64,000 bases of DNA, from contig NMRA01000352.1 in assembly GCA_002633005.1 (NCBI GenBank), positions 224,905 to 288,904 on the forward strand. Reading direction: 5' to 3'. The translations under genes and the position numbers were made by a program. Source of the stretch: Phoronis australis (Eukaryota; Animalia; Phoronida). The notes beneath the pieces were generated by a model, which was not told the origin of the DNA, made no database searches, and was given only the letters and a program-made list of their open reading frames with translations. How positions within the stretch are numbered: the stretch's first letter is position 1; each line of letters starts with the position of its first letter. Of this stretch, positions 1,151 to 59,389 are shown piece after piece.

Positions 1151-1397
1151 CACAGCTCCCACCTTTCATGGTTCTTCAAACAATTTTGTGGATATGAAGC
1201 TGGATGGCAAAAAATAGACACAAAAGTAATAAAAAACAGCAACCAGGGAGATCACACCCACCCAAAACTTTTAACAGACTTCATTGCCTCCTTGATTGAA
1301 ACTCGTTTAATTTTGGATTTCAAGGACATGCCTAACTCAAAATAGAATCCAAAGACCATAAAATGGTTAAAAGGTGCACGGCTTGGATTGAACTCAC

Positions 1398-1563
1398 ATT
1401 TCTTAATCTGTAACTGCTGCTCAAATGCAGGTTTCCTGAAGGCTTCGTTGAAAAACCACACACAGTTAATGACCCACATAAAAGGGAGAAGCGCACAGCC
1501 TCCAAGGAAATACTTCCTGCATAGATCCAGTTTGTCCTCATCTTTAACCTTGCGCAGATCCAT
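1398..1563 (-). CDS. PSENEN: Gamma-secretase subunit PEN-2, first coding exon (remainder of gene appears to lie left of the window)
   Basis: Translates [55 protein letters not shown], matching the PEN-2 N-terminus ([20 protein letters not shown]). A cag acceptor lies 6 nt upstream of the ATG and a gtgagt donor follows 1398 (phase 1). The C-terminal exon was not found in 1-1397. Confidence 0.93.
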
Positions 1564-2949
1564 GGCTACCTGTTACATTGTAAACATGAACAAATTCAAG
1601 TGACATTGTTGCACATGATCTTAGAATCCTGCTTAATCTCAAGATCGTGTATCCCTGAACTTGGAATTGAGTATTCATAAAGGCAGTAGATTGAATTTTT
1701 TTGTACAGAGTAAAGAATGTTTGTGATTATTGGCCTCACGATCACCCATTTGCTCCTTTATCGTAACTTGTGTCGTAGAACTGAAAGGATCTGTGACTGG
1801 TTAACTCGAATATCGCTTGGTGAATAAGATCGCCAATAGTTGAAAAAAAGTTGGCGAAAATTTCTAATATTTTACTAAAATGTAATTGCATTTAGTGCAG
1901 GGCAAATTTTCATCAACGTGAATGTGATTTTATCAACACGAACGTGATTTGATTGACCTTGTCAAGTTTGCTCGTGTATTCCAAGTTCTCGTATATGTGA
2001 TCTTGAGATTAAGCAGGATTCCAAGTTCACCCACATTGTGTCTCTGGGGCACTTGTCCCATACATTTTATATATGTCACTGCTGTATCAATAAAAACTTT
2101 GCATTTTGTCATTCAAAATTCTGATTCCAATAAAATTTTAATATTGCAGAGTAAGCACTAATTCAGACATAAAAACTTCGTGATGTCTTGACCAAACAAA
2201 CAAAATAAAGGAACCTCATAAAATATGTTATTATTTTCGTAACATGATATACAAAATTTGGCACAACTAAAGTAACACATATAGTTAATTTCTATAGTGC
2301 GGGCATTTGGCAATACAAGAATCCGAATGCTCAGTGTGGGTGTTGTAGTCTAAACTTATTTGCGCACTTCAATTTGGCACTGGTTCGTGAGCCAAATTGG
2401 GGCTTGCGACAAACGAAAAAAGCTACTGAAAGTTCTAAAATTATTGCTTTTTTATCGGTTACCAGAACTGAAATTGATGACAAAGAGTGTTGTGTGGCAT
2501 GTCAAAGTTTTGCAGGACACTCCCTCTATAAGATTAATCCAAATGGTAAAAGTGATTCATCCAAATGACCTGTATAAAGGCTGTAATCAGTGTAATCATT
2601 AATGGGTTCTGATAATCATAAAAAATCCACACCACTTGCAGTAATGTGGGAACTAATAAGTGGATGAAACTGGTTCTCTAAATCAGGGCTCACTTATGAT
2701 ACGACCATTGCCGAAACGAAAACACAAAACGACACTGTCGCAAAACAACGCGTCATACTGATACGCCACAAACACCGACTCGGCCTCAGTCTCACTCTCG
2801 CTCTCTGACTCAGCCACTCAGGTGACTCAGGACAGCTAAAGTAATACCGTAACTTGTTTACAAGTATAAGCTTGTCATCATCAACTACAAATCATGGATA
2901 GGAAACAGGACGAGTAATAAAATACAAACACAATCTGCTACAACGCAGT

Positions 2950-19489: not shown

Positions 19490-19612
19490 TTTTGCACACG
19501 GCACGCTTCATGCGTTGGCCTTATCTGCGGTATTTGTACCGTGACACAATATTGCACATGACAGTGCGCCCGGCTTTTGCACACGACACCCTAATATACA
19601 ACAAATATAAGG
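19490..19612 (+). promoter_or_regulatory. Metal-responsive promoter of MT-L: three MREs and a TATA box
   Basis: MTF-1 core TGCRCNC at 19493-19499 (TTTTGCACACGGCAC), 19565-19571 (TGCGCCCGGC) and 19578-19584 (TTTTGCACACGAC); TATAAG at 19606; CCAAT at ~19455. Conserved in the paralogue's promoter. Confidence 0.8.
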
Positions 19613-19725
19613 ACGAGTTTCGCGATTGCCATTCATTAACACAAGCAGCTAACGCTACCAGAAGTGTAACGCACTGTGTGTGACGACGTTCAGTATATTG
19701 ACAACGCGTAGTTTTAATATCGACA

Positions 19726-19738
19726 ATGGCAGATTCAA
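19726..19738 (+). CDS. MT-L exon 1 (MADS)
   Basis: ATGGCAGATTCAA|gtgagt; conserved at 32582-32594. Confidence 0.8.
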
Positions 19739-22700
19739 GTGAGTAGGACCACCGCGTACGCACTTTGATGTGTATTAATATCTCTAATTTAGCCTAAATT
19801 TACACTTTCTTATACATCACATTCCGTGTTATTGAGTTATTGTATAATTCTTAAATTGAGTTTAAGCAGGTTTCTATCTACTGGTGATGCTTACGGCCGC
19901 TATTGAATTCAGCCGCTCACCTCTAAAAGTGACCGACGATTTCGGAAATAAAGTTCGCTGATACTGGCGCTCCCTTGATCACCTACAGGTGCAGTCTAAC
20001 TGTTTTCAGGTAAAACATGTACGTGCGAGGCCATGTGCAAGAAGGACGTCCCCGCGTGTACTCCTCCTGCCAAATGCGAGGGTCCGTGTAAATCATGCAA
20101 ATGTGCAGGTAAATGACGCGATCCTTAATTATTCATGATTAAAAATACAGTCTTGCAATTACTGTCATTTACTGTCACATAGGCCGCGGTGCGCCGCATC
20201 TGTCTTTGATTTTCTTGTAGGAAGCTGGGCGGAAACCAGCTTTTATTTTTTTAAAATCTGTTCAAAGTAAAAAAATACTGACTAAACACGTATATCTCGT
20301 GAAAAAATAAAGACAAGTAAATAAGAATAATATTTTGTTAGAAAATTTAGAGATAACGGACTTAAAAGATATTTGCACATAAGTACAGCCTGGTAAAGGT
20401 TTACAGTTACCTTAAACGTCAAGCCTAACGCCAAAACGCAAGTTCCCATGATATCATGGTTCTACCAACACGACATACCGATCTTTTTTCAAAATAAAGA
20501 CCTAATGTTAATTTAAAGTTAAAAATTTCAATTTCTAGTGCTGTGGGATAAATGGATGCCTCGCATACTTAAATAGCCGTGAGAGAATATTAAGTTCAGT
20601 ATCTAGGACCGGTAGCGGATGAGGGGGGGGGGCTCAGACCCCAGGTCGCGGCGGAATTGTGTTCCCGTTTTTTTTTTCCTTATTTTTTAGTCCACCGACA
20701 GAATTTGCGAACAGAAGGAGAAGGCCCACACCCTCAGCCCCCGCAACTTTCGGGCCCCCTGTGCACATACAATCGCGCTTTGCCCAATTCCCCGAGGCAA
20801 CATGTTGGGCCCCCCTTAGCCGCGTATCCTAGATCACTGAATAACCTCGATACCGTCGTAGACTGTATTTATGAACGTGTATAGATACATGTATTCTGTA
20901 TTGCGTTCCTTTATTTTGTATTATACACGAAGGTATCTAGCGTAATCATTATTATGGTGCTGTCCCCTTATTCATTGGTAACTACTAGCCACGACAAGAA
21001 TGAATGAAGTGCTTATGTTTGTTCCTCTCACCAGGTGGCGACTGTCAGTGTGGTTGCGGATGTGACTCCAAGACCGCCTGCAAGTGCCCCGTCACGTGTT
21101 CATGCATCGTAAGATGCGGTTGCAGGGGTGAGTCATTTCTATCAACATCCCAACAGTTATCGCTGCATTGCTCATCGGGAGATTTCAAAATAATTTCTCT
21201 GTTCAAAAAAGTTCCTAGTGGGGATCAGGGCTCATTAGTTCGTAACACAGAACGAAATCCATAGTTTTCGCAGTATTCTTTTCGCAGTATTAGTTTCTGG
21301 ATGAATACCGCAGGAAGTTCATTAAGACGTTTTGAATATTTTGTCAACAATTTTGACGGAAGGTGAAAAAGGCGATGACATCGGTTTTGGAAGCGGAGAC
21401 TGATGGTCTGACGCAAAAAGGTGCTTTGAAGCCCGGAGGCACAGTGCATATTTGTGCGTGAAACAGCTTGGTAGTAGTTTTTGCCTTGGTGAACTATGTT
21501 TGTCAAGATGTGTTATATTTAAGTCCCCGGTGTTCGTGTGTGTCGAAGGTGAAAGTGTTAATGTCGGCTACTGGTTTATGCGTATGTATTAATTGTCTCT
21601 CCCTCGCAGTATCCATTAGCAGCGTCTTTTCAGTTCTCGTTTAAAGCAATTCTTTTTTTGCAAACTGTAGTTACTTTCTCACCAGCCACAATATTCACTA
21701 CTTATTCTATGGTTACTCCGGTATATGGTGTGTCATCTGCCCGACTAAGAGTCACGTGACATTTGTATATGTGTCCACTTGCTGCTTTTTAGTTGATTTG
21801 CGTCGACTGGGAATTCAAATTTCATGTATTCTTCTTGTTGTTCACTCACTAGGGGGCGCCTGCGAGTGTGGGTGTGGCTGTAGCTGCTGCGTGCCATGTT
21901 GTTGCCAGATCACGTGTTCCTGCAAATCCAACTGCAAATGTGCTGGTAAGGACCTACTCTAGCTGTTGTACTAGACAAATAGTTTTGTAAAACCCTTGCT
22001 ATGCAACGACTCGTGGTGGAGAGTTTTACCGGTCTTCTAGATTTTTCATCACACGTCCGGTGAACGTGAGGGTGATTATTGTGCCAAATATGCTCTTTTA
22101 ACTCAAAGCTTACTACGTTATCGTCTATAGTCTAATATATGAGAAATTATTACAGTAAGTTCATAACTTTCAACGGGCAAACTGGTCACTGCTGCTACAT
22201 TCTGGTATTTACGCGCAAGAAATCCATGTGCTTAAAATGCATGGGTTCACGATAAAAATCAATGCTGGTGACAATGCCTCTGGCGAGGAAGAACACTGGT
22301 GTTTTTTGCCTCGGATGTCATATTATGCTCAATGATTTTTTTCTACAGGTGGCAGTTGCCAGTGTAGTTGCGGCTGTGACTACAAGACCCCCTGTAAGTG
22401 CGCGAACGCCTGCTCTTGCAAACCGGCCCCGTGCTGTGAACCAAAGTGTAAATGCGCTGGTGAGTTGATGTTACGGGCTCCTATGAGGCCAAAAGCAAAC
22501 AATGTTTTAAATGACATGCCCGGTCTCCGCACAATCACGTCGTTGCAGCTCTGAAACTGGTTTGAATCTGGTAAAAAAGTTGATAAAATAAGATCATAAA
22601 ACAACGTCACCACTTTTGCCCATCAGAGGTGGATTTACCTTCGAATATGTGCGCAAGTAAAGATATCGTGCCACTGCATCAATTTTCAAAAAGGCGAGAA

Positions 22701-25700
22701 CCAATTATAATTTTTGGCTGTAGTGTTGTATTACCTATAACCATTTTAAGGTGTGTGTATGCCAAGGCAATGTCTGCCTGAGGTATCCTTGAATTGTTTA
22801 CTACATGAACGTATTGTTGTAAAGCTACATGCGCTTGTTTTTGTGTCTGTAACCAAATAAACATCAAACATTAAAGTTTTAGCATGAATTCGCATTTAGG
22901 CAACGTGAAGTTCTCAATTTCCAACTCGCGTTATTTTCATTTTTGTCAATAGGTGGCAGCTGCCAGTGCGGTGTCGGTTGTGACTCCAAGACCCCGTGCA
23001 AGTGCCCTGACACCTGCTCGTGCATATCCGTATGCAAATGCGCAGGTGAGTTAATATTATGGTCTCCTATGAGACCAAAACTGGGCATAGTTGGTTCTGG
23101 TCTGTGCTCCTTCTTACTTTGAAACCTGCGCCTCACTCATTAAAGAAAAAAGCGTCCACGGATCCATTTCAGACGAAGCCTCGTTTTTTTGAATTTCACC
23201 ACAAACGCAGACAAGCAACTGGTTTTAAACGCCCTGTCACCACCTCCCCCCATCACTGACAACCACGTCGCTGCATCGTTAAGTAAAGAGTGATTTGAGT
23301 ATAGTAAAAAGAAAGAAAGCGGTGCCCGACTTTCGCCAGTTTCCGTTGGATTTGCCCTCGAAAATTTGCGGTGCCACTGAATCAATTTTCAAAAAAGACC
23401 GGGGTTTTAAATTGGAGCATGAATTTTCCTTTACACAACTTTAAGTCCTCATAATTTCCCTCTCTTTTGTCCTGGTTAAATTTCTAAAATAGGTGTTGGA
23501 ATGTCGTGCAGTTACCCAAGATTAAGAAGAGTAAAATATTATAAAGTAAAACGATGAACGTAGGAACCAAAATATATTAAAATATGACTGACGTTCGTCG
23601 TTTTACTTTATACTATGTTACTCATTTTAAATTTCTGTCAATAGGTGGCACCTGCCAGTGCGGTGTCGGTTGTGACTCCAAGACCCCCTGCAAGTGCCCG
23701 GACACCTGCTCGTGCATATCGAAATGCAAATGCGCAGGTGAGTTGATATTATGGTCTCCTATGAGATCAAAAATGGGCATAGTTGGTTCTGGTCTGTGCT
23801 CCTTCTCATTTTGAAACCTGCGCCTCACTAATTAAATTAAAAGAAAAAGGTTCCATGGATCCATTTGAATCGAAGCTTTGTTTTGTTTTGAAAATCACCA
23901 CATTAGTCAGGTGGATTTGCCTTCGAAAATGTGCGCAACTAAAAATAACGCGTCAATTTTCAAAAAGGCCACCACCAACTATGTTTTTGGCCGTAAAGTT
24001 GTATTACACACCTGTAATCAGGGAGTCGGTATTGGAAGGTGTGTGTAGGCCAAGGCAATGTCTTTGTGAGAGTGTCATCCAGTCGCTAAATACATTTATT
24101 TCATTATTGTAACCCTGCAAGCTTGTCTATACCAAATGTGTTTACATGTTCGCTGCTGGGCACTAAACGTTGAAATTTGAGCATGAATTTTCCTTTACGC
24201 AACGTGAAGTCCTCAATTTAACTTGTGTTAATATAATTTCTGTCAATAGGTGGCAGCTGCCAGTGTGGTGTCGGTTGTGACTCCAAGACACCCTGCAAGT
24301 GCCCCTACACGTGCTCGTGCCTATCGAAATGCAAATGCGCAGGTGAGTTAATATTATGGTCTCCTACGAGATCAAAACTGGGCATAGTTGATTCTGGTCT
24401 GTGCCCCTACTCATTGTGAAACTTGCTCCTCACTCATTAAAGAAAAAGCATCCGCGGATTCATTTCAGATGAAGCCTCGTTTTTTGAAAATCACCCTAGA
24501 CGCGAACAAGTAAAGTTTTAAACGCCATACCATCAACTTTCCCCCCACACGAAGATAACCACGAAGCTGCATCAATAAAACTGATTTGAGTATCCTAAAA
24601 AGAAAGAAAACGGCACCACTTTCGCCAATCTCACTCATGTGGATCTACCTTCGAAAATGTGCCCAATTAAAAAAATAAAGCATCAAGTTTCAAAAAGGCC
24701 ACGACCAACTATGTTTTTACCGTAAATTTGTATTACACAGCTGCAATCAGGGAGTAATTGAAGGTGTGTGTAGGCCAAGGCAATGTCTGTGTGAGAGTGT
24801 CATCGAATCGTTAACTACATTTAGTCCATTATTGTTACCTTGCAAGCGTGTCGATACCAAATGTGTTTATGTGTTCGATACTGAGCATTAAACATTGAAA
24901 TCTGAGTTCTCATTTACATGAAGCAGTCATCAATTTAACTTGTGCTGTTTTTATTTCTGTCAATAGATGGTAACTGCCAGTGTGGTGTCGGTTGTGACTC
25001 CAAGACACCCTGCAAGTGCCCCGACACGTGCTCGTGCAAACCGGCTTCCTGCTGTGAACCGAAGTGTAAATGTGCTGGTGAGTTACCGTCATGGTCTCCT
25101 ACGAGGCTATAAGGGCATAACTTGCTTCTGGTTTGTGCTCCTACTAATTTTGAAACCTGCGCCTCACTAAAGCAAAAACTTCCACGTATACATTTCATGC
25201 GAAGCCTCGTTTACTTTTAACAAACACACGCACGCACGCACGCATGGTTTTAAACACCGAGTGCCATCAGCTCCCTCACCCCCTCCGGCCCCCCTCACAA
25301 ACAGCCATGTCGCAGTAGCACTGAAATTGATTTGAGTACGGTAAAAAATTACGGCCTGGTTCCGCCAATCTCAGGTGGATTTGGTTTTTGGAAGTGTGCG
25401 CAACTAAAAAATATCGCGCCAAAAACTCATCAATTTTCGGAAAAGGCCAGAATAAGTTAATATATGCTTTAGTTGTCAGAGTGTTATATTGCACACCTAT
25501 TGGCAAGGAGTTTATAAAGGTGTGTAGGGCAAGTCATTGTAAGCTTACTTTGTGTTTACACGTTCTCTTTTAAGTAGTAATCGTTAAAATTTAAGTATGA
25601 ATTCTCATTTACGAATTGTGAAATCGTTGATTTCTCACTGGTGATATTTTCGGTTTTGCCAATAGGCGGCAGCTGCCAATGTGGTTGCGGATGTGACTCC

Positions 25701-26300
25701 AAGACCCCCTGCAAGTGCCCCGACACCTGTTCGTGCATATCGCAATGCAAGTGCGCAGGTGAGTTGCTGATAAAAATTTTAGTCTCACCCACAGACGCAT
25801 TACTTAACGGTTGCAGTCTGGTACAAGAACAAAAGGCTTAAAAATCCTTGTGTGTGTCGTTTAGGCAAAGTGAATTTGGTTCAATACTCTGAAATTCTCA
25901 GTTTTCGGATTTAATTAATTTGTTAAGATAACAAACGTCGGGTTCGCGACTGACCCTGGTGAAAGTGTGTATAACTAATGAACATCAAACTAAGTCGCCA
26001 CTATTTTCATTCTTCAGGTAAAATTTAAAATGGCGTTATATGCGTGCTTCCTGTCACAAATTCTGATGTTGGGAATTTGCCGTCATAAAAGTGGTCCTAT
26101 CTTGTCATTTACTTGGCTTAAAAGTAATCTCTCAACAGTTAATACTTCAGGTCTAGCTCATAGAATTTCATGTCTTGTATTTAGGGTTTTGATGAAATTA
26201 TTTTTAAAATTTTGTAGCAGGCGACGAGTGCAAGTGTGGAGTAGGTTGCAAGAAGGACACTGCTTGCCCGTGCAAGGATGACTGCAGCTGCCGCACTTAG
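19726..26300 (+). CDS. Long multi-domain metallothionein (MT-L), 11 exons, ~323 aa, 98 Cys (~30%)
   Basis: Exons 19726-19738, 20010-20108, 21035-21127, 21853-21945, 22349-22459, 22953-23045, 23645-23737, 24250-24342, 24967-25077, 25666-25758, 26221-26300. All introns are GT-AG and phase 1; the ORF is uninterrupted (972 nt). CxC-rich, Lys/Gly/Ser/Pro-rich and almost aromatic-free; short MADS first exon; MRE/TATA promoter; AATAAA at 26836 and 26906. Confidence 0.88.
20010..20108 (+). CDS. MT-L exon 2
   Basis: SKTCTCEAMCKKDVPACTPPAKCEGPCKSCKCA (8 Cys). Confidence 0.87.
21035..21127 (+). CDS. MT-L exon 3
   Basis: GGDCQCGCGCDSKTACKCPVTCSCIVRCGCR (10 Cys). Confidence 0.9.
21853..21945 (+). CDS. 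MT-L exon 4
   Basis: GGACECGCGCSCCVPCCCQITCSCKSNCKCA (13 Cys). Confidence 0.88.
22349..22459 (+). CDS. MT-L exon 5 (long module)
   Basis: GGSCQCSCGCDYKTPCKCANACSCKPAPCCEPKCKCA (12 Cys). Confidence 0.9.
22953..23045 (+). CDS. MT-L exon 6
   Basis: GGSCQCGVGCDSKTPCKCPDTCSCISVCKCA (9 Cys). Confidence 0.9.
23645..23737 (+). CDS. MT-L exon 7
   Basis: GGTCQCGVGCDSKTPCKCPDTCSCISKCKCA (9 Cys). Confidence 0.9.
24250..24342 (+). CDS. MT-L exon 8
   Basis: GGSCQCGVGCDSKTPCKCPYTCSCLSKCKCA (9 Cys). Confidence 0.9.
24967..25077 (+). CDS. MT-L exon 9 (long module)
   Basis: DGNCQCGVGCDSKTPCKCPDTCSCKPASCCEPKCKCA (11 Cys). Confidence 0.9.
25666..25758 (+). CDS. MT-L exon 10
   Basis: GGSCQCGCGCDSKTPCKCPDTCSCISQCKCA (10 Cys). 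Confidence 0.9.
26221..26300 (+). CDS. MT-L exon 11 (terminal)
   Basis: GDECKCGVGCKKDTACPCKDDCSCRT* (7 Cys); tandem TAGCAG acceptor (alternative start 26218). Confidence 0.88.
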
Positions 26301-27919
26301 AGCGCCGCCTTTTGATGGAGCTGGGGAACCTCGGGGTCATGGTTTCCTTTCTCGATTCGGAATTTATCTGCTCTGTCCTCGTTATATTCCATCGGTTTAA
26401 TTCCAGAATACATAGTCTTCTTATCTATTGAATACTGTTTATGTTGTATAATCATCCCCTATCTGCTTTTATATACTTGCCTGGTTCCCTTTACTAAACT
26501 TGTCAGTTCTCTTTGAAAAACAGTAAGGTATATGTTATTCATAGACAATGGTCAAGGTGGCCATGAGAGGTTAATTGTTGAATAGACGTGGCCATATAGA
26601 AGCAAAGTTCAGTGTCTGTGTAACTTAAAGTTTTAAACCTCTTCCTCTAAAGCTTGTTAAACATGTGTTATGTTAATGACCTAACGAAATGTTTTGTAAT
26701 TAGGAGTGTCGTCTGCTGAGCTTTCTAGATTACACTGGGAAAAATCTGTTTCAGACGACTTCAAGTGTAAACCTATTTAGCTCAGCACACAAAGACATTT
26801 ACTACTCTGTATAAATACAAGTACTGTATACACACAATAAAATTATCACAATCGACAAGAATAGTTCCTTACTTGTGTTATTAAACGCTCAATTATGTTC
26901 TCATCAATAAAAGTATACTTGGTCCAGTGCATGCATTGAGAACGTCATGCGAAAAATTAAATAGAATTTAATCTATGGTTATTCTATCCAAAAGTAACCA
27001 CTGAAAATAACGTCAATTTTTTGAAATTCAAAATTTACAAAATGTACTTACAAAAAACCTTTTCGTAAACACAATGACGTCATTTCAAACGCTTCACGCA
27101 TTGTCTCTTGACGTACATTTAGAAGTGTATGGCACCCTCAAGTTGCCTTGAACTTTCGCCTCCTCTGGAACACCTCTGGTATTTTAGTTGCCTAAAATTT
27201 CGTTTAGAGGTGAACGTTATTCTTACCTCAGTCACACGGCAAATCATGTGACTTTCAAACTGTAGAATAACTGACAGTCACGTTTGAGGGCAAAGTTAAG
27301 GCTCGAGACTACCCGATGTTAAATCAAAATGCGCCCTCCTTTGTCAATGACTAGTGTGAAAACGGTACAAGCTGCCGCAAGTTCATACAAGCAAACGTTC
27401 ACAATGAATTCAAGAAAATTCGGAAAGAAAAGACTTGTGTAAAAACACAAAATTTACAATAATATTTGGTATTCACATCCTGATGCACCGTATGTTGGTG
27501 ACTACTCATGGCAGTCTGGAACTCTACAGAAACAATCCATTCAGTTGCGCTGAGCAAGCCAAGACAAGGTAACAGTCACCTTGCATCGACGGAACGGAAA
27601 CTAATATTCTACGTTTTGAAGTCCATTTTCAAAAGTTCAACCCTCACGTTCCCATTTTGTCAAGACGTTCTGACTGGCTGAGAAGTTCTGAGAGCGAGTT
27701 TGTTGTGACAGTAACTTAAAGTGGCACACATGATTGGCAAATCTCCTTAGACCAATGCGACAACTCATATGCAACGCGTTTCATAAATAGACAACCTTTA
27801 AGCTTCGCGCCAACTAAAGACAAACAGTGTTAACTTCAATTGCTCGATGGGGTCAGTGGCGGCTACTGCAGCAGTCGCTACAATCTGTCAATATTCGTTT
27901 TCTAATTACCCAAACACCC

Positions 27920-32581: not shown

Positions 32582-35500
32582 ATGGCAGATTCAGGTGAGT
32601 GGGACCACCGCGTACGCACTTACATTTATATTTTCTTATTCAATTCAATATAACTGTCTAATTGTTTATTTAAATCTAACCAGATTTTTATTCATTGATG
32701 ATGTTTACCGTCGCTATCGACAAATATTCGGGTACAAAAGTGTCAAGTAAAATTTCTTGCGAGATAAGGAGCTCTTAGTAATCTCAATATTGAACACGGT
32801 TCACCTCAAAGAAGTGATACGCTCCCTTGATCACCTTGGGTTCAATCTTAACTTTTTCTTCAGCTAAAACGTGTATGATCGAAGCAGTGTGCAAGAAGGA
32901 CGTCCCTGCGTGTACTTCTCCTGCCAAATGCGGTCCGTGGGAGTCTTGCAAATGTGCAGGTAAAATGATACAATGCTCATTGTGAATAAACACAGGCATG
33001 CAATAAATTTAAACAGTTTGTTTACCGTCACATCATGTCGCGCCGCATCTGTCTTTGATTTTCTTGTAAGAAGGTGGGCAGAAACCAGCCTTAACTTTTA
33101 ACTTCGAGGATCGCGGTCGTTTGAGCTGCAACAGGTGACTCCAGAACAAGGGATTCCGGCCTGTTTCGGCCAACACAAGGGACTTTTTTCTTTTTGAAAA
33201 ACATCATGCCGAATCAATTTTCAAAAAGGCAATCCAGAACTGATTATGCGATTTTTGTTAGCCTTAAATCGTCAAGCCCAACACCAGAACTTATTGCTAT
33301 GATGTACTACCAACACGACATAACAGATTTTTTTTCAAAATAAAAACTAAATGTTCAAATTTTAAGTTTAAATTTACAATTTCTAGTGCTGACTGGCATA
33401 AATGGCTGCCTGGCATATTTGATTAACACCGAACTGCGATTAGAAACACAACCCCGATCATTACGGGACATTGTAAATTGAATTTAGACACAACAACATG
33501 TGTAGATATACTACTTTACAGCAATCAATTTGCCCTCAGTACAGTTATCTCCCTTTTCACCAGTGCTGAACACCATGGGATACTTGCCTCCCGTTCAGTA
33601 ACGCTAGGACCTCGCTAAAAAGCAAGACTTCGCGAGATTATGTGAGATATTGCCGTGTATTTTAAATGAGAACATGTGACTTTGACTAGGTTTTAGCTAG
33701 GTCCTAGCGTAGGTCCCAGTGTCTCAGTACTGAACGCACGCCAGGCGCTGTTCAGTAACGCTAGGACCTAGCTAAAATCTTGTCAAAGTCACGAGTTCTC
33801 ATTCAAAATACACGGCAATGTCTCATGTAATCTCTAGTCTTGCTTTTTAGCGAGGTCCTAGCGTTATTGAACAGAAGGCTGATGCTCACTGGAAACAACA
33901 GCTGGGTAATCACTGAATGGCAGGCTAAGAATGACAGCCAGCCTCCTTTCAGTTGAATGGCGCGTATCGTAGGAAGGTATGTACGAAGGTATCTAGTTTA
34001 ACCATTATTACTGTGGTCTCCTTGTTCGTTGGTAACTACAAGCCAGGATAAGAATGACGGGCTTATGTTTCAACGGTTCCTTTCACCAGGTGGCAGCTGT
34101 CAGTGTGGTTGCGGATGTGACTCCAAGACCGCCTGCAAGTGCCCCGTCGCGTGTTCATGCATCGTAAGATGCGGTTGCAGAGGTGAGTGGTTTCTATCAT
34201 CATTTTTATTGTACAGTTATCGCTGCATTGCTCTGAAAATCTTAAGTAACATCGGGAGATTTCAAAAACATGTGTTCGAAAAAATTCCTATACTGGGGAC
34301 TACGACGCATTTTCGTAACGCCAAGAATGAAATCCATAGTTTTCGCAGTATTTTTATGCGTCCACATATAAATATGACGTTCGTTCGTCCTTCCGTCCGT
34401 CCGGGCGGCGTCCGTCCGGCGTCCGGCGTCCGGCGTCCGCTGCTCTGTCTCCAAAACCCTTTGACATACGTTCATGAAATTTGGCACATATGTTCCATTC
34501 TTGAATGGGACGGCATATGAGCGAACTTTTGGACGGATCCGACTACCGATGTGCCCCCCAGTGGCAATTTTAGTTTTTTACGCTTACCTAGTATCTTCAA
34601 AAGTCCTGAACGGATTTTCATGAAATTTAGTAGGTGTTAGTGAGATGACGCTATCCTCCCGTTTTCGGATAGATTCGACGTAGTTTGCGCCACCTAGTGG
34701 CCATTTTTACTGTTTTCGAGTCTGTTTTTGCGTCCACCCTCTATCAACCAAACCGTTCAAAGGATGATTGTGAAAATTGGCATGTATGTGCTTACTATAA
34801 AGAGGACGGCTGACGATGATTTTCCGACGATTTCGACTACTGTGGCGCCTCCTAGTGACAGTTTTGTTTTTTTGCGCCTATGGGTGTATCTCCTAAACCG
34901 TTCGCAGGATCTTGACGAAATTTCGTAAGTATATTTATGTTAATAACGGACGACGACAACTTTTGGACAGGTCCGACTACAGGTGTGCCCCCTAGTGGCA
35001 ATTTTATTTTTTAAGTTTACCTTTGTGTCTTTAAAAGTCCTGAACGGATTTTCATGACATTTAATATGTAGGCACCTATTAGTGAGGTGACGCTATCCTC
35101 CTGTTTTCGAATGGATTCGATGTAGTTTGCGCCACCAAGTGACCATTTTTAATGTTTTCCCCTCTATCAACCAAACCGTTCAAAGGATGATTGTGAAAAT
35201 TGTCATGTATGTGCTTACTTTTATGAGGACGGTTGACTTGATTTTCCGACGATTTCAACTACTGCGTTGCCTCCTAGTGGCAGTTTTGTTTTTGTTGTGC
35301 CTATGGCTGTATCTCCTAAACCGTTCGCAGGATCTTTACTTAATTTAAATAGCAAATGTATTTATATGATGTTGACTACGGATGACGACGACTTTCGGAT
35401 AGATCTGACTACTGCTGTGCCCCCTAGTGGCAATTTTAGTTTTTTACGTTTAACTCTGCATCTTCAAAGGTCCTCAACAGATTTTCATAAAATTTTAAAT

Positions 35501-37374
35501 AAAGGCATTTATTGGTGTGATGACGCTATCTTTCTGTTTTTGGATGGAATCTAGGTATTTTGCACCACCTAGTGGCCATTTTTGCTGTTTTCAAATCTTG
35601 TTTTTGATGTCCACCCCTGTGTCAACCAAATCATTTGAAAATTGGCAGATATGTTCTCAGTGTGAAGACTACCTTTGATGATGGTGACTGACTACTGTGG
35701 TGCCGCCTAGTGGTAGTTTTGTTTTGCGCCCATAGCTGTATCTCTAAACCCACTGCAGGATCTTTACTAAATTTAGTAAGTGAATTTATATGAAGCTAAC
35801 AACAGACGACGACGACTTTCAGGCGGATCCAACGGACACTGTGCCCACTAGTGGCAATTTCATTTCATTTTATTTTGTTTTCCTTTGTTTTTCTGATGTT
35901 CCTTGACGGATTTTTATGAAATGTGGCATGTTCCTGTTTTTGGATGGATTGTATGTGGCCATTTTTATGACACAAATAAATAACCCTAAAAGCAGACCAT
36001 TTGCAATGCATTTGTGGGCGCATTTCAACGCTCCGCGTTGCTCTTGTTCTAGTAGTATTAGTTTTGGGTGAATACCCTAGAATTTATTAAGACGTTTTGA
36101 AGATTCTGTCAACGATTCTGACGGAGGGTGAAAAAGAGGATGACATAGGTTTTGAAAGCATAGACAGATGATCTGGCGCTAAAACAAATTCGATAAATTA
36201 GGTTTTTCATAGTTTGGGACGATATTTAAGGTAAAAATTCACCTACTAGGAACTTGTTTGTGGTTGATTACTCGGACATTCCATCCTCATCTGAAGGTCT
36301 TTCAACTTATGGATTATCCGCGCTTTGTTGAATGGGGTCATGACCACGGACTAGCTGTAGACCTTCGTTTCGGTTCACGGTGGGCTTTCTGTTCCTGATA
36401 AAGACGGCNAATACTTCGAAAATTCTCATTTTCGGATTTAACGGATTTGTAAACACTCCATACACAAACATCAAACTAACTCAGTACTATTGTTATTGTT
36501 CACGTAAAAATTAAAATGACATTGTGCGCGTGCTTTCCGACGCAATTTCTATTATTGTTTTTTCCACAACAAAAGTGGTATTAAATTGTCCCTTGCTCGG
36601 TTTTGATGCGATCTCTGGAGTCGGTAAGAACTAAAAATTTGTTACAACTTGGGGCGAAGCTTATAAAATTTCATGTCACGGCGTACCTAAACTGGAATTT
36701 TATAAAAAGAAATAACGAACTGACAAATATGTAATGATGTCTTCAATCAATGCGTGTGCACACTTAGCAGCAAGTCCAGGATTCGAACCCCGGTAAGGAA
36801 ATATGTCTTTTCGGACTTGACAATAATTCACGCGATTTGATCAACATACACGTAAGGCCTATACGAAGACTTAAGGATTCTTATTTAGACGAGTTGTCAC
36901 TAGAGTTATTTGGATGTCCTGAAATAAGCTCCAATATGATTGCGGAACAATTTGAGACTAGTTTCATAACTGCAAGAGGCCCTTGAAAATCAAAAACTGC
37001 TTTAGACAGAAAGCCCGGATTTAATGCCAACTTGACATACGTGCGAAAGTAAGCGAACACATAAATTAATACCTTCACACAGGAACTATGATAATTTGGT
37101 AAATGGTAAAATTGAATTGTTCTAATTTATTTTCTTGATCATGCTTTTGGTTTTCATGAAACAGTCACAGCGGAATTATATTTTCATTTTGGTGTTGTTA
37201 GGGTTTTAATGAAAGCATTTAAAAAATTTTGCAGCAGGCGACGAGTGCAAGTGTGGAGTAGGTTGCAAGAAAGGCACTGCTTGCCAGTGTAAGGATGGTT
37301 GCCTCTGCCGTTTGATGGAGCTGGGGAACATGGGAGTCGCCTTCTCAACTTCGGTGTTCGCAAAATTTCGTTAA
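32582..37374 (+). CDS. Short metallothionein paralogue (MT-S), 4 visible exons, ~112 aa, 23 Cys; possibly decaying or incompletely assembled
   Basis: Exons 32582-32594, 32864-32959 (AKTCMIEAVCKKDVPACTSPAKCGPWESCKCA), 34090-34182 (GGSCQCGCGCDSKTACKCPVACSCIVRCGCR) and 37238-37374 (GDECKCGVGCKKGTACQCKDGCLCRLMELGNMGVAFSTSVFAKFR*). Homologous to MT-L exons 1, 2, 3 and 11; AATAAA at 37894. Confidence 0.78.
33586..33879. mobile_element. Inverted dimer of a ~155-bp MITE, nested in another short repeat (~33540-33975)
   Basis: GCCTCCCGTTCAGTAACGCTAGGACC... is mirrored about ~33743; monomers at 55924-56078 and 57646-57804. Confidence 0.75.
34351..36048 (+). mobile_element. DINE-1/HINE-like element with central tandem repeats, in MT-S intron 3
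   Basis: SubTIRs ATGCGTCCACA (34356) / TGTGGGCGCAT (36013); (CGTC)n microsatellite; ~145-bp units in ~435-bp higher-order repeats; 3' hairpin CAACGC-TCC-GCGTTG. Inserted in a T-run with no TSD; the empty site is visible in MT-L intron 3 (~21277). Confidence 0.8.
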
Positions 37375-38229
37375 ATGACCTAGGTGGTCCTAGATGCCAG
37401 AATGAGTTGATATGTTGGGCCTGATGGTTTACTTACTCGATTCAGAATTATCTGCTGTTCGCTGTCATGTTCCGTTGGTTTGATTCCAGTCTTCTTATTT
37501 ATTGAATACTGTTGATTTGTAATTATACCTAACTGCTTTTATATGCTGTCCATTTGGTGATAATAAAATTGAGTATGCTTTGAAGAACGCTTAAGTTTTA
37601 TTGTGACGTGGCCACGTACTCGTACGTAAACAGTTCAGTGTCTGTATAATTTTAAGTTTAAGACCTCCACTTCTAAAGTTTGTGAAACAGGTATCATATT
37701 TTAATATGACCCGATGGAAAGTTTTGTAGTTACGAGAATTGTCTTCTGAGATTTCTGGGAAAATCAGTTTCAGTTTACTTCAAATGTAAATTTATTTAGC
37801 TTGGCACACGAAGACTTTGACAACTAAGCAGAAGTAAAGTACTCTATATAAACTCTAAAATCCATCGGAATCTCAAAACTTCCTTGTCTGTGTAATAAAA
37901 CGCACAAGTATATTCTACTCAACAAAGTGCATGCATCGATAACGTTATGCCATAGATTAATTTCTATTTAATCCATGGTTATACTTTCCAAAAGTAACCA
38001 CACACAATAACTTCAAGATTGTTCAAATTTACAAAATGTTCTTGGAAAATCCTTTGCGTAAACACAATGACGAGATTTCAAACGCTTCACGCATTGTCTC
38101 TACGTACATGTACAAATGTAAAGCACTCCCAAGTTTCCTTTGAACGATCGTCTCCTTCAAAGGACTTCTGGTATTTTCCCCTGAGGAGGTGAACGTTATC
38201 TGTTTAGTGTACTTCAGTCACACGGCAAG

Positions 38230-41200: not shown

Positions 41201-44200
41201 CATGATCCTAAATAGAGACTTGACTAAGTTCCATAAATCATTTGCGTATTCGTGTCGTTCTTTACCGACAGATGTAATTAACTTTTTCTGTCAGTGTATC
41301 CTTATTATTATGATATCCTCTTTGACTGTTGACATTTTGTTATAATATAATTAAAAAATGATCAATGAAAACAATTAGAGACTTAGTCATTTAATTAGTG
41401 GCGTTGCATGAGAAGATACCAATTTATTTTCAATAGTTTGATAATTCAATATTAAGTTCATACGGTCCAGTGTGTATCAAAGTCAAAAAACACAACATAA
41501 ATGAAAATAAAAATAAAACCATTGAGAATGTTTCATGCAACCGGGCATATGAGCACATGTATTCAGAGCAAAAGTTCTGGGACTTTGGAAAAAATAAGGA
41601 ATGTAGAAAATCCACATTGTGTTCATGTATTATATAACTTATTGTATGATATTGCAAGCTTCGTGATCACAGTAGAATTATAGACCCTCTTTGGTTCATG
41701 ATCACACGTCTGCATCTTCGTGCTGAATTTGAGATCGAACCTGTAGGTACATTCGTAACACACTTCTATAGGCTCAAACTTCACGGAAATTCCCAAGGTG
41801 TTCCGCATGACTTTGGTACTGTGTCAGAGTGCGAACAATATGGAAAGTAACGTAAATTTTGATGAGTTTGCTAAAACAACACTTACGTGTATCAAAATCA
41901 ACAATGTATGATTCCATGGGAACAGTAAGCCAGGGAGCGCGGTGAACAGTACAACTCCTGACATTCCGAGACATATCTGGAGTTTTGGACTGTAAGCAAC
42001 ATAACACAATTATATGTCCGTTGGAATACAAATAAATTTGTAGAGATGGCATGAGAACAACGTTATAGAGCTTGCTACACCGACTAGGCTAGGCTAGGCT
42101 AGGCGAGGTGGTTTACCCCGCGCGGTCTTTTAGGACATCAAAGGAATTGTGGCGACAGCATCAAGCATCAAGTGAAGCCTAATTCACAAAGACGAGCCCA
42201 AGTTGAGTGAGAGCGTAAATCTTTGTTAGAATGTAGGGCGCCTGTAAATATTTCCACCAATAATTAGGTTTGAGGTATTGGAATCACGAATGGTACGGCA
42301 ATGCACTGTCTGCGGGTGATCGCGGTGAGGGAGGTGTAATTTGTACATGCAACTTATAAGCCACGTGCGGCTTATGGTTTTACAGTAATAGCTATAAGTC
42401 AGTATAACTATATTCAGTAGAAGTGAAATAATCGGTGCATGAAATGTGGTGCACCTTTGCTTCTATTTCCGCAAAATCTGCGTTGTCAGTAACCCTTTAC
42501 CTCGCTGGTTGTTGAACCATATCAGACCTTCAGGAAATTTACTTGCAATAACCTCAGTTGAGTATAAGTTAGGTGTTCAGGTATAACGTCCAGCAAACAA
42601 AGCGTTCTGGTAATAGTTAACCTCCAAACTCTGCATAAGCGAGTAGTAATAATCAGTTTATCGGATTTTCCAAGCAGATTTGGCCATTGAAGGAAAGCGA
42701 GCAATGTACAGTTATGCCCCTGACCTAGACTGAGAACGTTATGAGCTTTCCGAAAACAATTTAGTTTTAAGTTCACGCTTAAAATCAATCAAAAGTAAGC
42801 ATGAGTATTAAAGTGAACACAACATGACTCTAGTACCTCAAAATAAATTTTATTATTATATCTTACTTGATTTCAGTTCCTTTAGTGCACAGCTCATAAA
42901 GAAACACGCAAAAATTTAAAAAATAATTATTATGCACAACGTCATGGGTTGAACACAAGTCGTTCGCCAAACTGTTTGGATCAGAGACAAAGTGTATAGA
43001 GTGAAGAGAAAGCAAAGTACATTTAGCGTCGAGAAGGTTCGTAGAGGGATCAAAAGATGAGTTTCCGGAGGCTTCAGTAACAGCAGCCAGGCGGAGAACG
43101 TCTGTTCCGAAGGACACCAAAGTTGCGCAGAAGTGGCATCGCTTCGTGGGCCGAACGAGAGTGTGGGACGTCATCGTGGACCAAGCGATTCGGTCCGGGG
43201 TCACTCTGTGTTCTGCCCACTTTGAGGACTCGCGTTTCGACTCCAGTCACAGGAGACGTTACGATAAAGGACAATATTTATCATTCAGAGACATCAGCTC
43301 AGGATCGTCTGTTGGCTGACTGGGTTGACTCGCCGAGCCCGAGGCCGCTTCTCCCGCGGGAGGATCCAGTTCGTAAGGCTCAAAGTAGAAACGTACGCAG
43401 CCGGAAGCACATTAAACTGGTTCTCGCTTTCGTGCAACCCCATTTCCTCATCCTGGCCACCATTCCCGTACGTTTTTTCATAGTATTCGTTCAATTCTTG
43501 CTCATAATCGTCGTCGCTTTCAAATTCCCTGCTCTCCGCCATTGTTCAATGCTATTCACTGAATCTCTTGTGTTCAACCATGACGTCACATGGCGGGAAA
43601 TGTGAAAATTGGCAAAATTGAAAGAAAAATCAAAATTTCGAGCTAATTGCACAAAGTAAACATGGGTTTAGCTAAATTTTACGTCATACATATAGTCTGT
43701 GGCCACCGGTAATTCAAAATGTGCAAAAATCCGTATGAGGAAGCTGGGCACTTCTGGAAATCAACTTCTCATCTTGCACTTCAACTTAGTAATTAGTGAA
43801 TAAAGGCTTAGCAAATTAATTACGAGCGCATCACAGTCTAGAAACAAATAACGGAAATTATCACAAAAACTAACAGCTGCTCACTGAGATTTTGCACTTT
43901 TGCTCAAGCTGGAGATTTAATTATTTTCCGAAATTATTGAGTGAAGTCTAAGACCAAAACGCCTGACTTGAAAGTCTGACGTCACTTTTCATGAAACAGG
44001 TCCCAAGACTCATTCTCAGATGCTGCTTTGCCGAGACCTGTGGAACCAAGTTGAAGCTATGGCCATACGTGTTCTTAACAGGAAAACGTGAATTTTTCTA
44101 TATTCAGCATGAACATTTTTCCTTCATCCAGGCCACAATATTAGCAAGACACTGTTCGATTCACACAATTGTCTGAGAGTGACGTCATACAGGTTTACAG

Positions 44201-48070: not shown

Positions 48071-59389
<11,319 letters not shown>

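What the first reader, a model, noticed from the sequence alone, without database searches (positions are those of the whole stretch)
20090..26300. Metal-binding domain register is offset from exon borders: nine tandem CxC-x4-CxC-x3-C-x5-CxC-x3-CxC domains
Seen: joining the last CxC of each exon to the first seven core Cys of the next gives e.g. CKC-AGGS-CQC-GVG-C-DSKTP-CKC-PDT-CSC at every junction from exon 2/3 to exon 10/11. The terminal exon has exactly 7 Cys and exon 2 supplies the first CKC, so the array closes exactly. Established (from memory): this spacing equals the 9-Cys C-terminal beta-type domain of gastropod Cd-MTs (CNC-TSDG-CKC-GKE-C-TGPDS-CKC-GSS-CSC), which binds three M(II). 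Inference: MT-L is a 6-Cys N-terminal segment plus 9 beta domains (about 27 or more divalent ions), and each exon is a circularly permuted domain.
Basis: partly seen in the sequence, partly recalled or inferred. Interest (0 to 1): 0.78.

Follow-up and report, generated by a model that had tools for sequence, protein, structure and literature searches.

The report
Nine-unit metallothionein, introns inside each unit
This expressed invertebrate gene repeats the cysteine pattern of the snail three-metal "beta1" domain at least nine times, with an intron cutting every repeat, so the protein likely holds about 27 or more cadmium or zinc ions in clusters built across exon junctions; long repeat metallothioneins are known, but not one made mostly of beta1 units in the papers I could search.

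Summary
Real gene, mostly as described. Eleven phase-1 coding exons give a 324-aa, 98-Cys protein. Stranded RNA reads support all ten introns. The mollusc beta1 Cys core spans all nine junctions from exon 2/3 to 10/11 and ends flush at the C-terminus.

Corrections: the last junction is x5, not x4; only 5 of 9 units have exactly nine Cys (11 extra Cys overall); "nine" is this assembly's count, since in one RNA run exons 9-10 have about double depth.

The junction register is favoured by C-terminal closure, by a 6-residue insert falling in the predicted linker, and by the solved Littorina beta1 domain, where one Cd site uses Cys on both sides of the equivalent junction. No metal binding was tested.

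The offset is likely a by-product of duplicating a domain that contains an intron. Oyster alpha-beta1-beta1 MT shows the same repeat join, and a 10-domain snail MT binds 30 Cd. What differs is that beta1, not beta3, is expanded. New variant of a known kind; modest interest.

The parts
19493..19584 (+). Three metal-response-element cores (TGCRCNC) at 19493, 19565, 19578, 65-160 nt upstream of the RNA 5' end
   Evidence: 10 of 1275 overlapping 250-nt windows hold 3 or more sites, this one included; two sites are kept in the paralog's promoter. Function not tested.
19648..19738 (+). Exon 1: RNA 5' ends at 19648/19653, ATG at 19726, four codons plus one base, no Cys
20010..20108 (+). Exon 2: degenerate 6-Cys N-terminal segment plus the first CxC of unit 1
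20096..21105 (+). beta1 unit 1 (exon 2/3; 10 Cys); exon 3 = 21035-21127
   Evidence: joint of 926 nt
21115..21923 (+). beta1 unit 2 (exon 3/4; 13 Cys with CC and CCC; most divergent); exon 4 = 21853-21945
   Evidence: joint of 725 nt
21933..22419 (+). beta1 unit 3 (exon 4/5; 10 Cys); exon 5 = 22349-22459 ends with a 9-residue CC-bearing linker
   Evidence: joint of 403 nt
22447..23023 (+). beta1 unit 4 (exon 5/6; 9 Cys); exon 6 = 22953-23045
23033..23715 (+). beta1 unit 5 (exon 6/7; 9 Cys); exon 7 = 23645-23737
23725..24320 (+). beta1 unit 6 (exon 7/8; 9 Cys); exon 8 = 24250-24342
24330..25037 (+). beta1 unit 7 (exon 8/9; 9 Cys); exon 9 = 24967-25077 ends with the 9-residue CC-bearing linker; possibly present twice
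25065..25736 (+). beta1 unit 8 (exon 9/10; 10 Cys); exon 10 = 25666-25758
25746..26291 (+). beta1 unit 9, C-terminal (exon 10/11; 9 Cys, first gap x5); exon 11 starts at 26218, stop 26298-26300
26301..26860 (+). 3' UTR with a polyadenylation hexamer at 26836
   Evidence: an X5 contig runs to 26854
32582..37420 (+). Tandem paralog: exons 32582-32594, 32864-32959, 34090-34182 and from 37235; internal repeat exons likely missing at the scaffold N at 36409

Best explanation
This is a spliced, expressed multi-domain metallothionein of an invertebrate, likely a lophotrochozoan, whose nine or more repeats carry the mollusc beta1 cysteine pattern across exon junctions and likely each fold into a three-metal, nine-cysteine Cd/Zn cluster. 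Shown: gene structure, splicing, Cys spacing, flush C-terminal closure. Inferred by homology to the solved Littorina C-domain: the second Cys of the CxC at the end of one exon, with the first CxC and the lone Cys of the next exon, bind one metal ion; the 3- or 9-residue stretch after each unit is the linker; capacity is about 27 M(II), more if the 11 extra and 6 N-terminal Cys bind; the role is likely metal detoxification or buffering driven from the upstream metal-response elements. Inferred history: the ancestral C-terminal beta1 had an intron after its first CxC; duplicating domain plus intron made phase-1/phase-1 exons that hold the last seven Cys of one unit and the first two of the next, so any internal exon can be gained, lost or skipped without breaking the pattern.
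For: (1) Closure: of nine rotations of the nine core Cys, only the junction register leaves no Cys over at the C-terminus; the exon register leaves 7. (2) The spacing equals the published beta1 motif; strict beta3 and 12-Cys alpha patterns match 0 times. (3) An exon profile hits only the two Littorina MT chains (5ML1, 5MN3) among 177,635 PDB sequences; profile positions 1-24 align without gaps to the C-terminal beta1 (13.2 bits, E 0.97, weak) and the protein ends there; the beta3 domains score -10.6 to 4.9 and need gaps. (4) In that domain Cys74, 79, 81 and 85 bind one ion (PMC11500472 section 2.6). Counting on the Littorina sequence of Table S2 (by eye), the junction here falls between Cys74 and Cys79. 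(5) Gaps inside units are nearly fixed (4-5, 3, 5, 3), while the one large length change (3 to 9) sits in the predicted linker; mollusc linkers range x1-10. (6) Oyster CgiMTII and ApliMT1, classed alpha-beta1-beta1, join their beta1 copies by the same CxC-x3-CxC. (7) Introns 5-9 are mutually homologous, so the repeats grew as exon-plus-intron blocks.
Against: No metal binding or structure for this protein. The PDB hit is not significant by itself (E 0.97); Pfam gave 0 families for 10 of 10 exon peptides and three sequence searches found no relative. The insert in exons 5 and 9 is probably one event (the exons are 80% identical), so it counts once. The 3-residue link is also the spacing inside alpha domains, so an 11-Cys alpha-like core matches 6 times, overlapping. 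Four of nine units have extra Cys, which could change cluster size. The intron position in mollusc MT genes could not be verified; that step rests on recall and on the oyster repeat sequence. Introns 2 and 10 show no detectable homology to introns 5-9.
Confidence: 0.8

Rival explanations
1. Shifted clusters: the array folds as overlapping alpha-like (11-Cys, four-metal) or beta3-like units. Each beta1 core would recruit the next CxC across the 3-residue link, so boundaries differ from the beta1 tiling, at least in the Cys-rich units 1-3 and 8.
For: beta1 + x3 + CxC equals the first 11 Cys of the mollusc alpha motif and matches 6 times; a relaxed beta3 pattern matches 8 times. The profile also aligns weakly to Littorina beta3 domains. 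Calatayud et al. derive beta1-3 from a trimmed alpha domain.
Against: The strict 12-Cys alpha and strict beta3 patterns match 0 times. Alpha tiling would leave alternate units with 7 Cys; the beta3 register cuts a CxC, has a 1-residue linker and leaves 6 Cys at the end.
Confidence: 0.1
2. Exon-register domains: each exon encodes an autonomous, circularly permuted nine-Cys cluster (CxC-x3-C-x5-CxC-x3-CxC-x3-CxC), and the 7-Cys last exon is a trimmed unit.
For: Exons are the symmetric duplication unit; exons 6-8 have nine Cys each. Exon 2 opens with CxC-x3-C like the repeats. Trimmed terminal units exist in Oikopleura MTs (t-12C).
Against: No such motif is in the mollusc domain table. It leaves the conserved C-terminal unit incomplete, puts the 6-residue insert inside a domain and splits the Cys74/79/81/85 site.
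Confidence: 0.05
3. No fixed register: the protein works as a loosely ordered thiol sink (mixed Zn/Cu, redox buffer), and the beta1 pattern is only inherited.
For: 11 extra Cys with CC/CCC runs and a degenerate N-terminal segment. Metal preference cannot be read from Cys spacing (PMC7826182).
Against: All nine core Cys are invariant in 8 of 8 internal exons while neighbours vary. Long snail MTs form single Cd species at three per domain.
Confidence: 0.05

Closest known systems
Mollusc beta1 MT domain (C-domain of Littorina littorea MT, PDB 5ML1; Calatayud et al. 2021, PMC7826182)
   Same: Nine-Cys spacing; ungapped alignment of 24 profile positions; C-terminal copy ends the protein.
   Different: Here it is repeated nine or more times; four units carry extra Cys; most mollusc MTs keep one beta1.
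Oyster/clam alpha-beta1-beta1 MTs (Crassostrea gigas MT2/CgiMTII, Alectryonella ApliMT1, Pisidium PcorMT1)
   Same: beta1 duplicated; in the two oyster proteins the copies are joined by CxC-x3-CxC; CgMT2 is described as an exon duplication (PMC4101491).
   Different: Two copies rather than nine; intact 12-Cys alpha N-terminus rather than a degenerate 6-Cys segment. Oyster intron positions not seen.
Gastropod multidomain MTs, e.g. Alinda biplicata AbiMT4 (beta3 x9 + beta1, 319 aa)
   Same: Size and domain number; binds Cd30 at three per domain (PMC11645667), the model for capacity here.
   Different: Expands beta3, not beta1, and the gene is intronless (PMC7084494).
Oikopleura dioica MT2 (399 aa, 3-7 repeat units by population)
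   Same: Long repeat MT with varying repeat number (PMC8283569), as the reads hint here.
   Different: Unrelated 12-Cys domains; longer, so this protein is not the longest MT.
Proteins whose exon or sequence repeat is offset from the structural repeat (progranulin, potato type II inhibitors)
   Same: Same general principle. Recalled; only search listings and abstract openings of PMC4527844 and PMC2259423 were seen.
   Different: Disulfide-bonded secreted modules, not metal-thiolate clusters.

Membership tests
Metallothionein superfamily | About 15-30% Cys in CxC/CC/CCC motifs, few aromatic residues | tested here: met
   98 of 324 residues are Cys; two Tyr, no Phe, Trp or His
Metallothionein superfamily | Match to a curated MT profile | tested here: inconclusive
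   Pfam 0 of 10 single-exon peptides; Atlas first hit is an MT cluster at 0.86, below the tool's reliable range; the spliced protein was not submitted
Metallothionein superfamily | Binds metals in thiolate clusters; metal-inducible | not testable with these tools
   Three MRE cores upstream are only suggestive
Mollusc beta1 domain | [CxC]x3-6[CxC]x3Cx5-6[CxC]x3[CxC] core | tested here: met
   9 of 9 junction units (motif)
Mollusc beta1 domain | Exactly nine Cys per domain | tested here: inconclusive
   Met by 5 of 9 units; the other four have 10, 13, 10 and 10
Mollusc beta1 domain | Sequence similarity to a solved beta1 beyond Cys | tested here: inconclusive
   Only PDB hits are Littorina MT, best stretch the beta1 domain, but E 0.97
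Mollusc beta1 domain | Autonomous M(II)3Cys9 cluster | not testable with these tools
   Shown for Littorina C-domain in PMC11500472, not for this protein
Gastropod multidomain beta3(n)-beta1 MT | Tandem beta3 motif Cx3Cx4-5[CxC]x3-5[CxC]x3-4[CxC]x2C | tested here: not met
   0 matches
Bivalve alpha-beta1-beta1 MT | [quoted passage not shown] | tested here: not met
   0 matches; N-terminal segment has 6 Cys
Bivalve alpha-beta1-beta1 MT | beta1 copies joined by a 3-residue link | tested here: met
   6 of 8 links are x3 and 2 are x9; oyster sequences
Bivalve alpha-beta1-beta1 MT | Intron after the first CxC of beta1 in the mollusc genes | tested here: inconclusive
   No mollusc MT gene could be fetched; searches gave no exon coordinates; recalled only

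The most novel reading that the evidence does not exclude
An all-beta1 metallothionein whose length is tunable: because every cluster is completed across a symmetric splice junction, exon gain, loss or skipping would always rebuild intact chimeric beta1 clusters. Individuals or transcripts would then differ in Cd capacity in steps of three, and the Cys-enriched units (13-Cys unit 2, CC linkers) would be new four- or five-metal domains arising inside the array.
Probability: 0.3. Interest if true: 0.55.

Novelty: new variant of a known kind. Interest (0 to 1): 0.36.

Why it matters
Known long mollusc MTs expand the N-terminal beta3 domain and keep one beta1; beta1 duplication is reported as two copies in a few bivalves (PMC7826182). 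In Littorina the beta1 domain binds Cd four- to six-fold more tightly than the others (PMC11500472 abstract), so a nine-beta1 chain would be a high-capacity sink of the tighter domain. It also offers a clean test of whether MT clusters follow the exon repeat or the ancestral domain. The offset itself is a known kind of gene architecture and does not change MT chemistry.

Tried and rejected
No whole genome is held, so other paralogs could not be searched.

Single-exon phmmer against the PDB gave nothing useful (0 hits; yeast Cu-MT at E 9.4). Pfam gave 0 of 10. Word-index searches found no candidate, and the profile search of 1.84 billion representatives gave 0 hits. These blanks likely reflect short Cys-biased queries and say nothing on novelty. 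The Atlas hit (0.86) is a lead only.

Amphioxus MT was considered and rejected: its motifs differ. The neighbouring PEN-2 exon is closest to a nemertean (80%) and a gastropod (78%) over 56 residues, which does not resolve the phylum.

I first read the paralog as a short derivative that had lost seven exons. Rejected: its similarity to intron 10 starts at the base after the scaffold N (36410); its exon 3-to-4 joint is not among the 15 of 82 joints shown although its exon 2-to-3 joint has 132 and 135 reads; and an exon-7-like end joins its last exon in 75 and 79 reads. For the same reason the depth ratios of X7 (paralog expressed) and X4 (labelled DNA but spliced; paralog status unknown) are not used; only X8 is.

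The joints 7-to-9, 6-to-6 and 5-to-10 are not taken as alternative splicing, because exons 6, 7, 8 and 10 are 86-94% identical. The exon tree is unresolved (6 of 8 inner branches open). No structure prediction was run: the spliced product is not a contiguous window translation, so the junction register could not be folded.

Full report
Gene. A six-frame scan found Cys-rich stretches on the + strand from 20015 to 26327 and a second set at 32864-37344. Splice-site enumeration gave eleven coding exons, all introns GT-AG and phase 1, and a 324-aa product with 98 Cys. Stranded RNA reads from three raw-read runs lie on the + strand gene and skip exactly the modelled intron lengths: introns 1-5 and 8-10, introns 5-10 (intron 6: 35 and 12 reads; intron 7: 85 and 10 reads in X8 and X7). 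The last acceptor is 26218, not 26221. RNA 5' ends pile up at 19648 and 19653. Three MRE cores lie 65-160 nt upstream; 10 of 1275 overlapping 250-nt windows hold as many.

The observation. The core CxC-x(3-6)-CxC-x3-C-x5-CxC-x3-CxC occurs at 9 of 9 junctions, eight with x4 and the last with x5. Shuffles give mean 0.014 and at most 2 in 10,000, though the nine are copies of one unit. Five units have exactly nine Cys; units 1, 3 and 8 have 10 and unit 2 has 13; two linkers carry a CC pair.

Which register. Inside a tandem array every rotation gives nine Cys, so the interior cannot decide. Four things favour the junction register. It alone leaves no Cys over at the C-terminus. It equals the published beta1 motif, while strict beta3 and alpha motifs match 0 times. 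The only PDB hits of an exon profile are the Littorina MT chains, best on the C-terminal beta1 without gaps, though only at E 0.97; in that domain Cys74, 79, 81 and 85 share one ion, and by counting on the Table S2 sequence the junction falls between Cys74 and Cys79. The one large length change, 3 to 9 residues, lies in the predicted linker, probably a single event. Against: beta1 plus the next CxC also reads as an 11-Cys alpha core six times, extra Cys may enlarge four clusters, and nothing was measured.

How it likely works. Each unit would take up three Cd or Zn ions cooperatively, as the Littorina domains do (PMC11500472 abstract), and independently of its neighbours, as in the 10-domain Alinda MT (Cd30; Cd27 for nine domains). 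That gives about 27 ions, more if the extra and N-terminal Cys bind. Metal preference cannot be read from spacing. The N-terminal 6-Cys segment fits no listed motif and has 4 Cys in the paralog, so it is probably degenerate.

How it likely arose. Introns 5-9 are homologous to each other (69-89% over the longer aligned pieces), so the younger repeats spread as exon-plus-intron blocks. If the ancestral beta1 held an intron after its first CxC, duplicating it gives exactly these hybrid exons. The C-terminal unit here has that intron. Oyster alpha-beta1-beta1 proteins show the same CxC-x3-CxC join between beta1 copies, and CgMT2 is described as an exon duplication. That mollusc genes have the intron at this place is my recall; I could not verify it.

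Copy number. In X8, where the paralog is almost silent (depth 0.26 against 41.8 and 38.4 in its exon-2 bin), exons 9 and 10 have about double depth and 109 reads from 48 starts join exon 10 back to exon 9. An extra genomic copy (collapsed here or polymorphic), another paralog or a back-spliced circle would all give this; these reads cannot tell them apart. DNA contig depth in X1 is higher over 24315-25724 (57-109) than around exon 5 (37), but the tool warns that this is no copy number.

Paralog. A tandem copy at 32582-37420 shares promoter, exons 1-3 and the last exon. As assembled it has two beta1 units, but a scaffold N at 36409 sits where its sequence switches to intron-10-like, and reads join an exon-7-like end to its last exon, so it likely has more repeats.

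Lineage. A neighbouring PEN-2 exon is closest to a nemertean and gastropods; an earlier scan note called the genome likely molluscan (unchecked). I say only: likely lophotrochozoan.

Novelty. Multi-domain MTs of this size are known: Alinda 319 aa, Oikopleura 399 aa with varying repeat number. Mollusc expansions are mostly beta3, with beta1 doubled in a few bivalves. [quoted passage not shown] 2016 and Nam and Kim 2017, which I saw only as citations. PMC5578137 already notes that exon and domain borders do not always coincide in snail MT genes. Verdict: new variant of a known kind, interest 0.36.

What I read. PMC7826182: main-text parts 1-5 of 8, supplement parts 1 and 3 of 5 and a term search. 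PMC9781358 and PMC11645667: parts 1-2 of 5. PMC11500472: passages and section 2.6. PMC5578137: passages and section 2.3. Passages only: PMC8476144, PMC7084494, PMC5412396, PMC11101346, PMC4101491, PMC11242308, PMC8283569, PMC8658704, PMC4755600, PMC3419175. Figures were not available.

Noticed in passing
window 32582-37420: Tandem paralog is expressed in X6 and X7 but almost not in X8; likely incomplete at the scaffold N (36409).
   Followed up: partly
window 37310-37380: The paralog lacks a 17-nt stretch that holds the long gene's stop codon, so it reads on into a Cys-free tail of about 21 residues.
   Followed up: partly
window 21853-21945: Exon 4 is the most divergent repeat (54-63% identity to the others) and has gained four Cys, forming CC and CCC runs; a candidate new cluster type.
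   Followed up: partly
window 24967-25758: Exons 9-10 have double read depth and a back-joint in X6, X7 and X8 (74, 61, 107 reads): extra copy or circular RNA.
   Followed up: partly
window 26215-26221: Tandem acceptor (two AG three bases apart) before the last exon in both genes; the joints shown use the upstream one, adding one residue to the last unit's first gap.
   Followed up: partly
window 1252-1572 (- strand): First coding exon of a gamma-secretase subunit PEN-2 gene.
   Followed up: partly
window 34360-36050: Repeat with a 433-nt period inside the paralog's third intron, covered by many RNA reads with loose ends; likely a mobile element.
   Followed up: no
window 42863-43605 and 52692-53153: Open frames that by eye resemble a THAP-type zinc finger and transposon-associated proteins; names recalled, not tested.
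   Followed up: no
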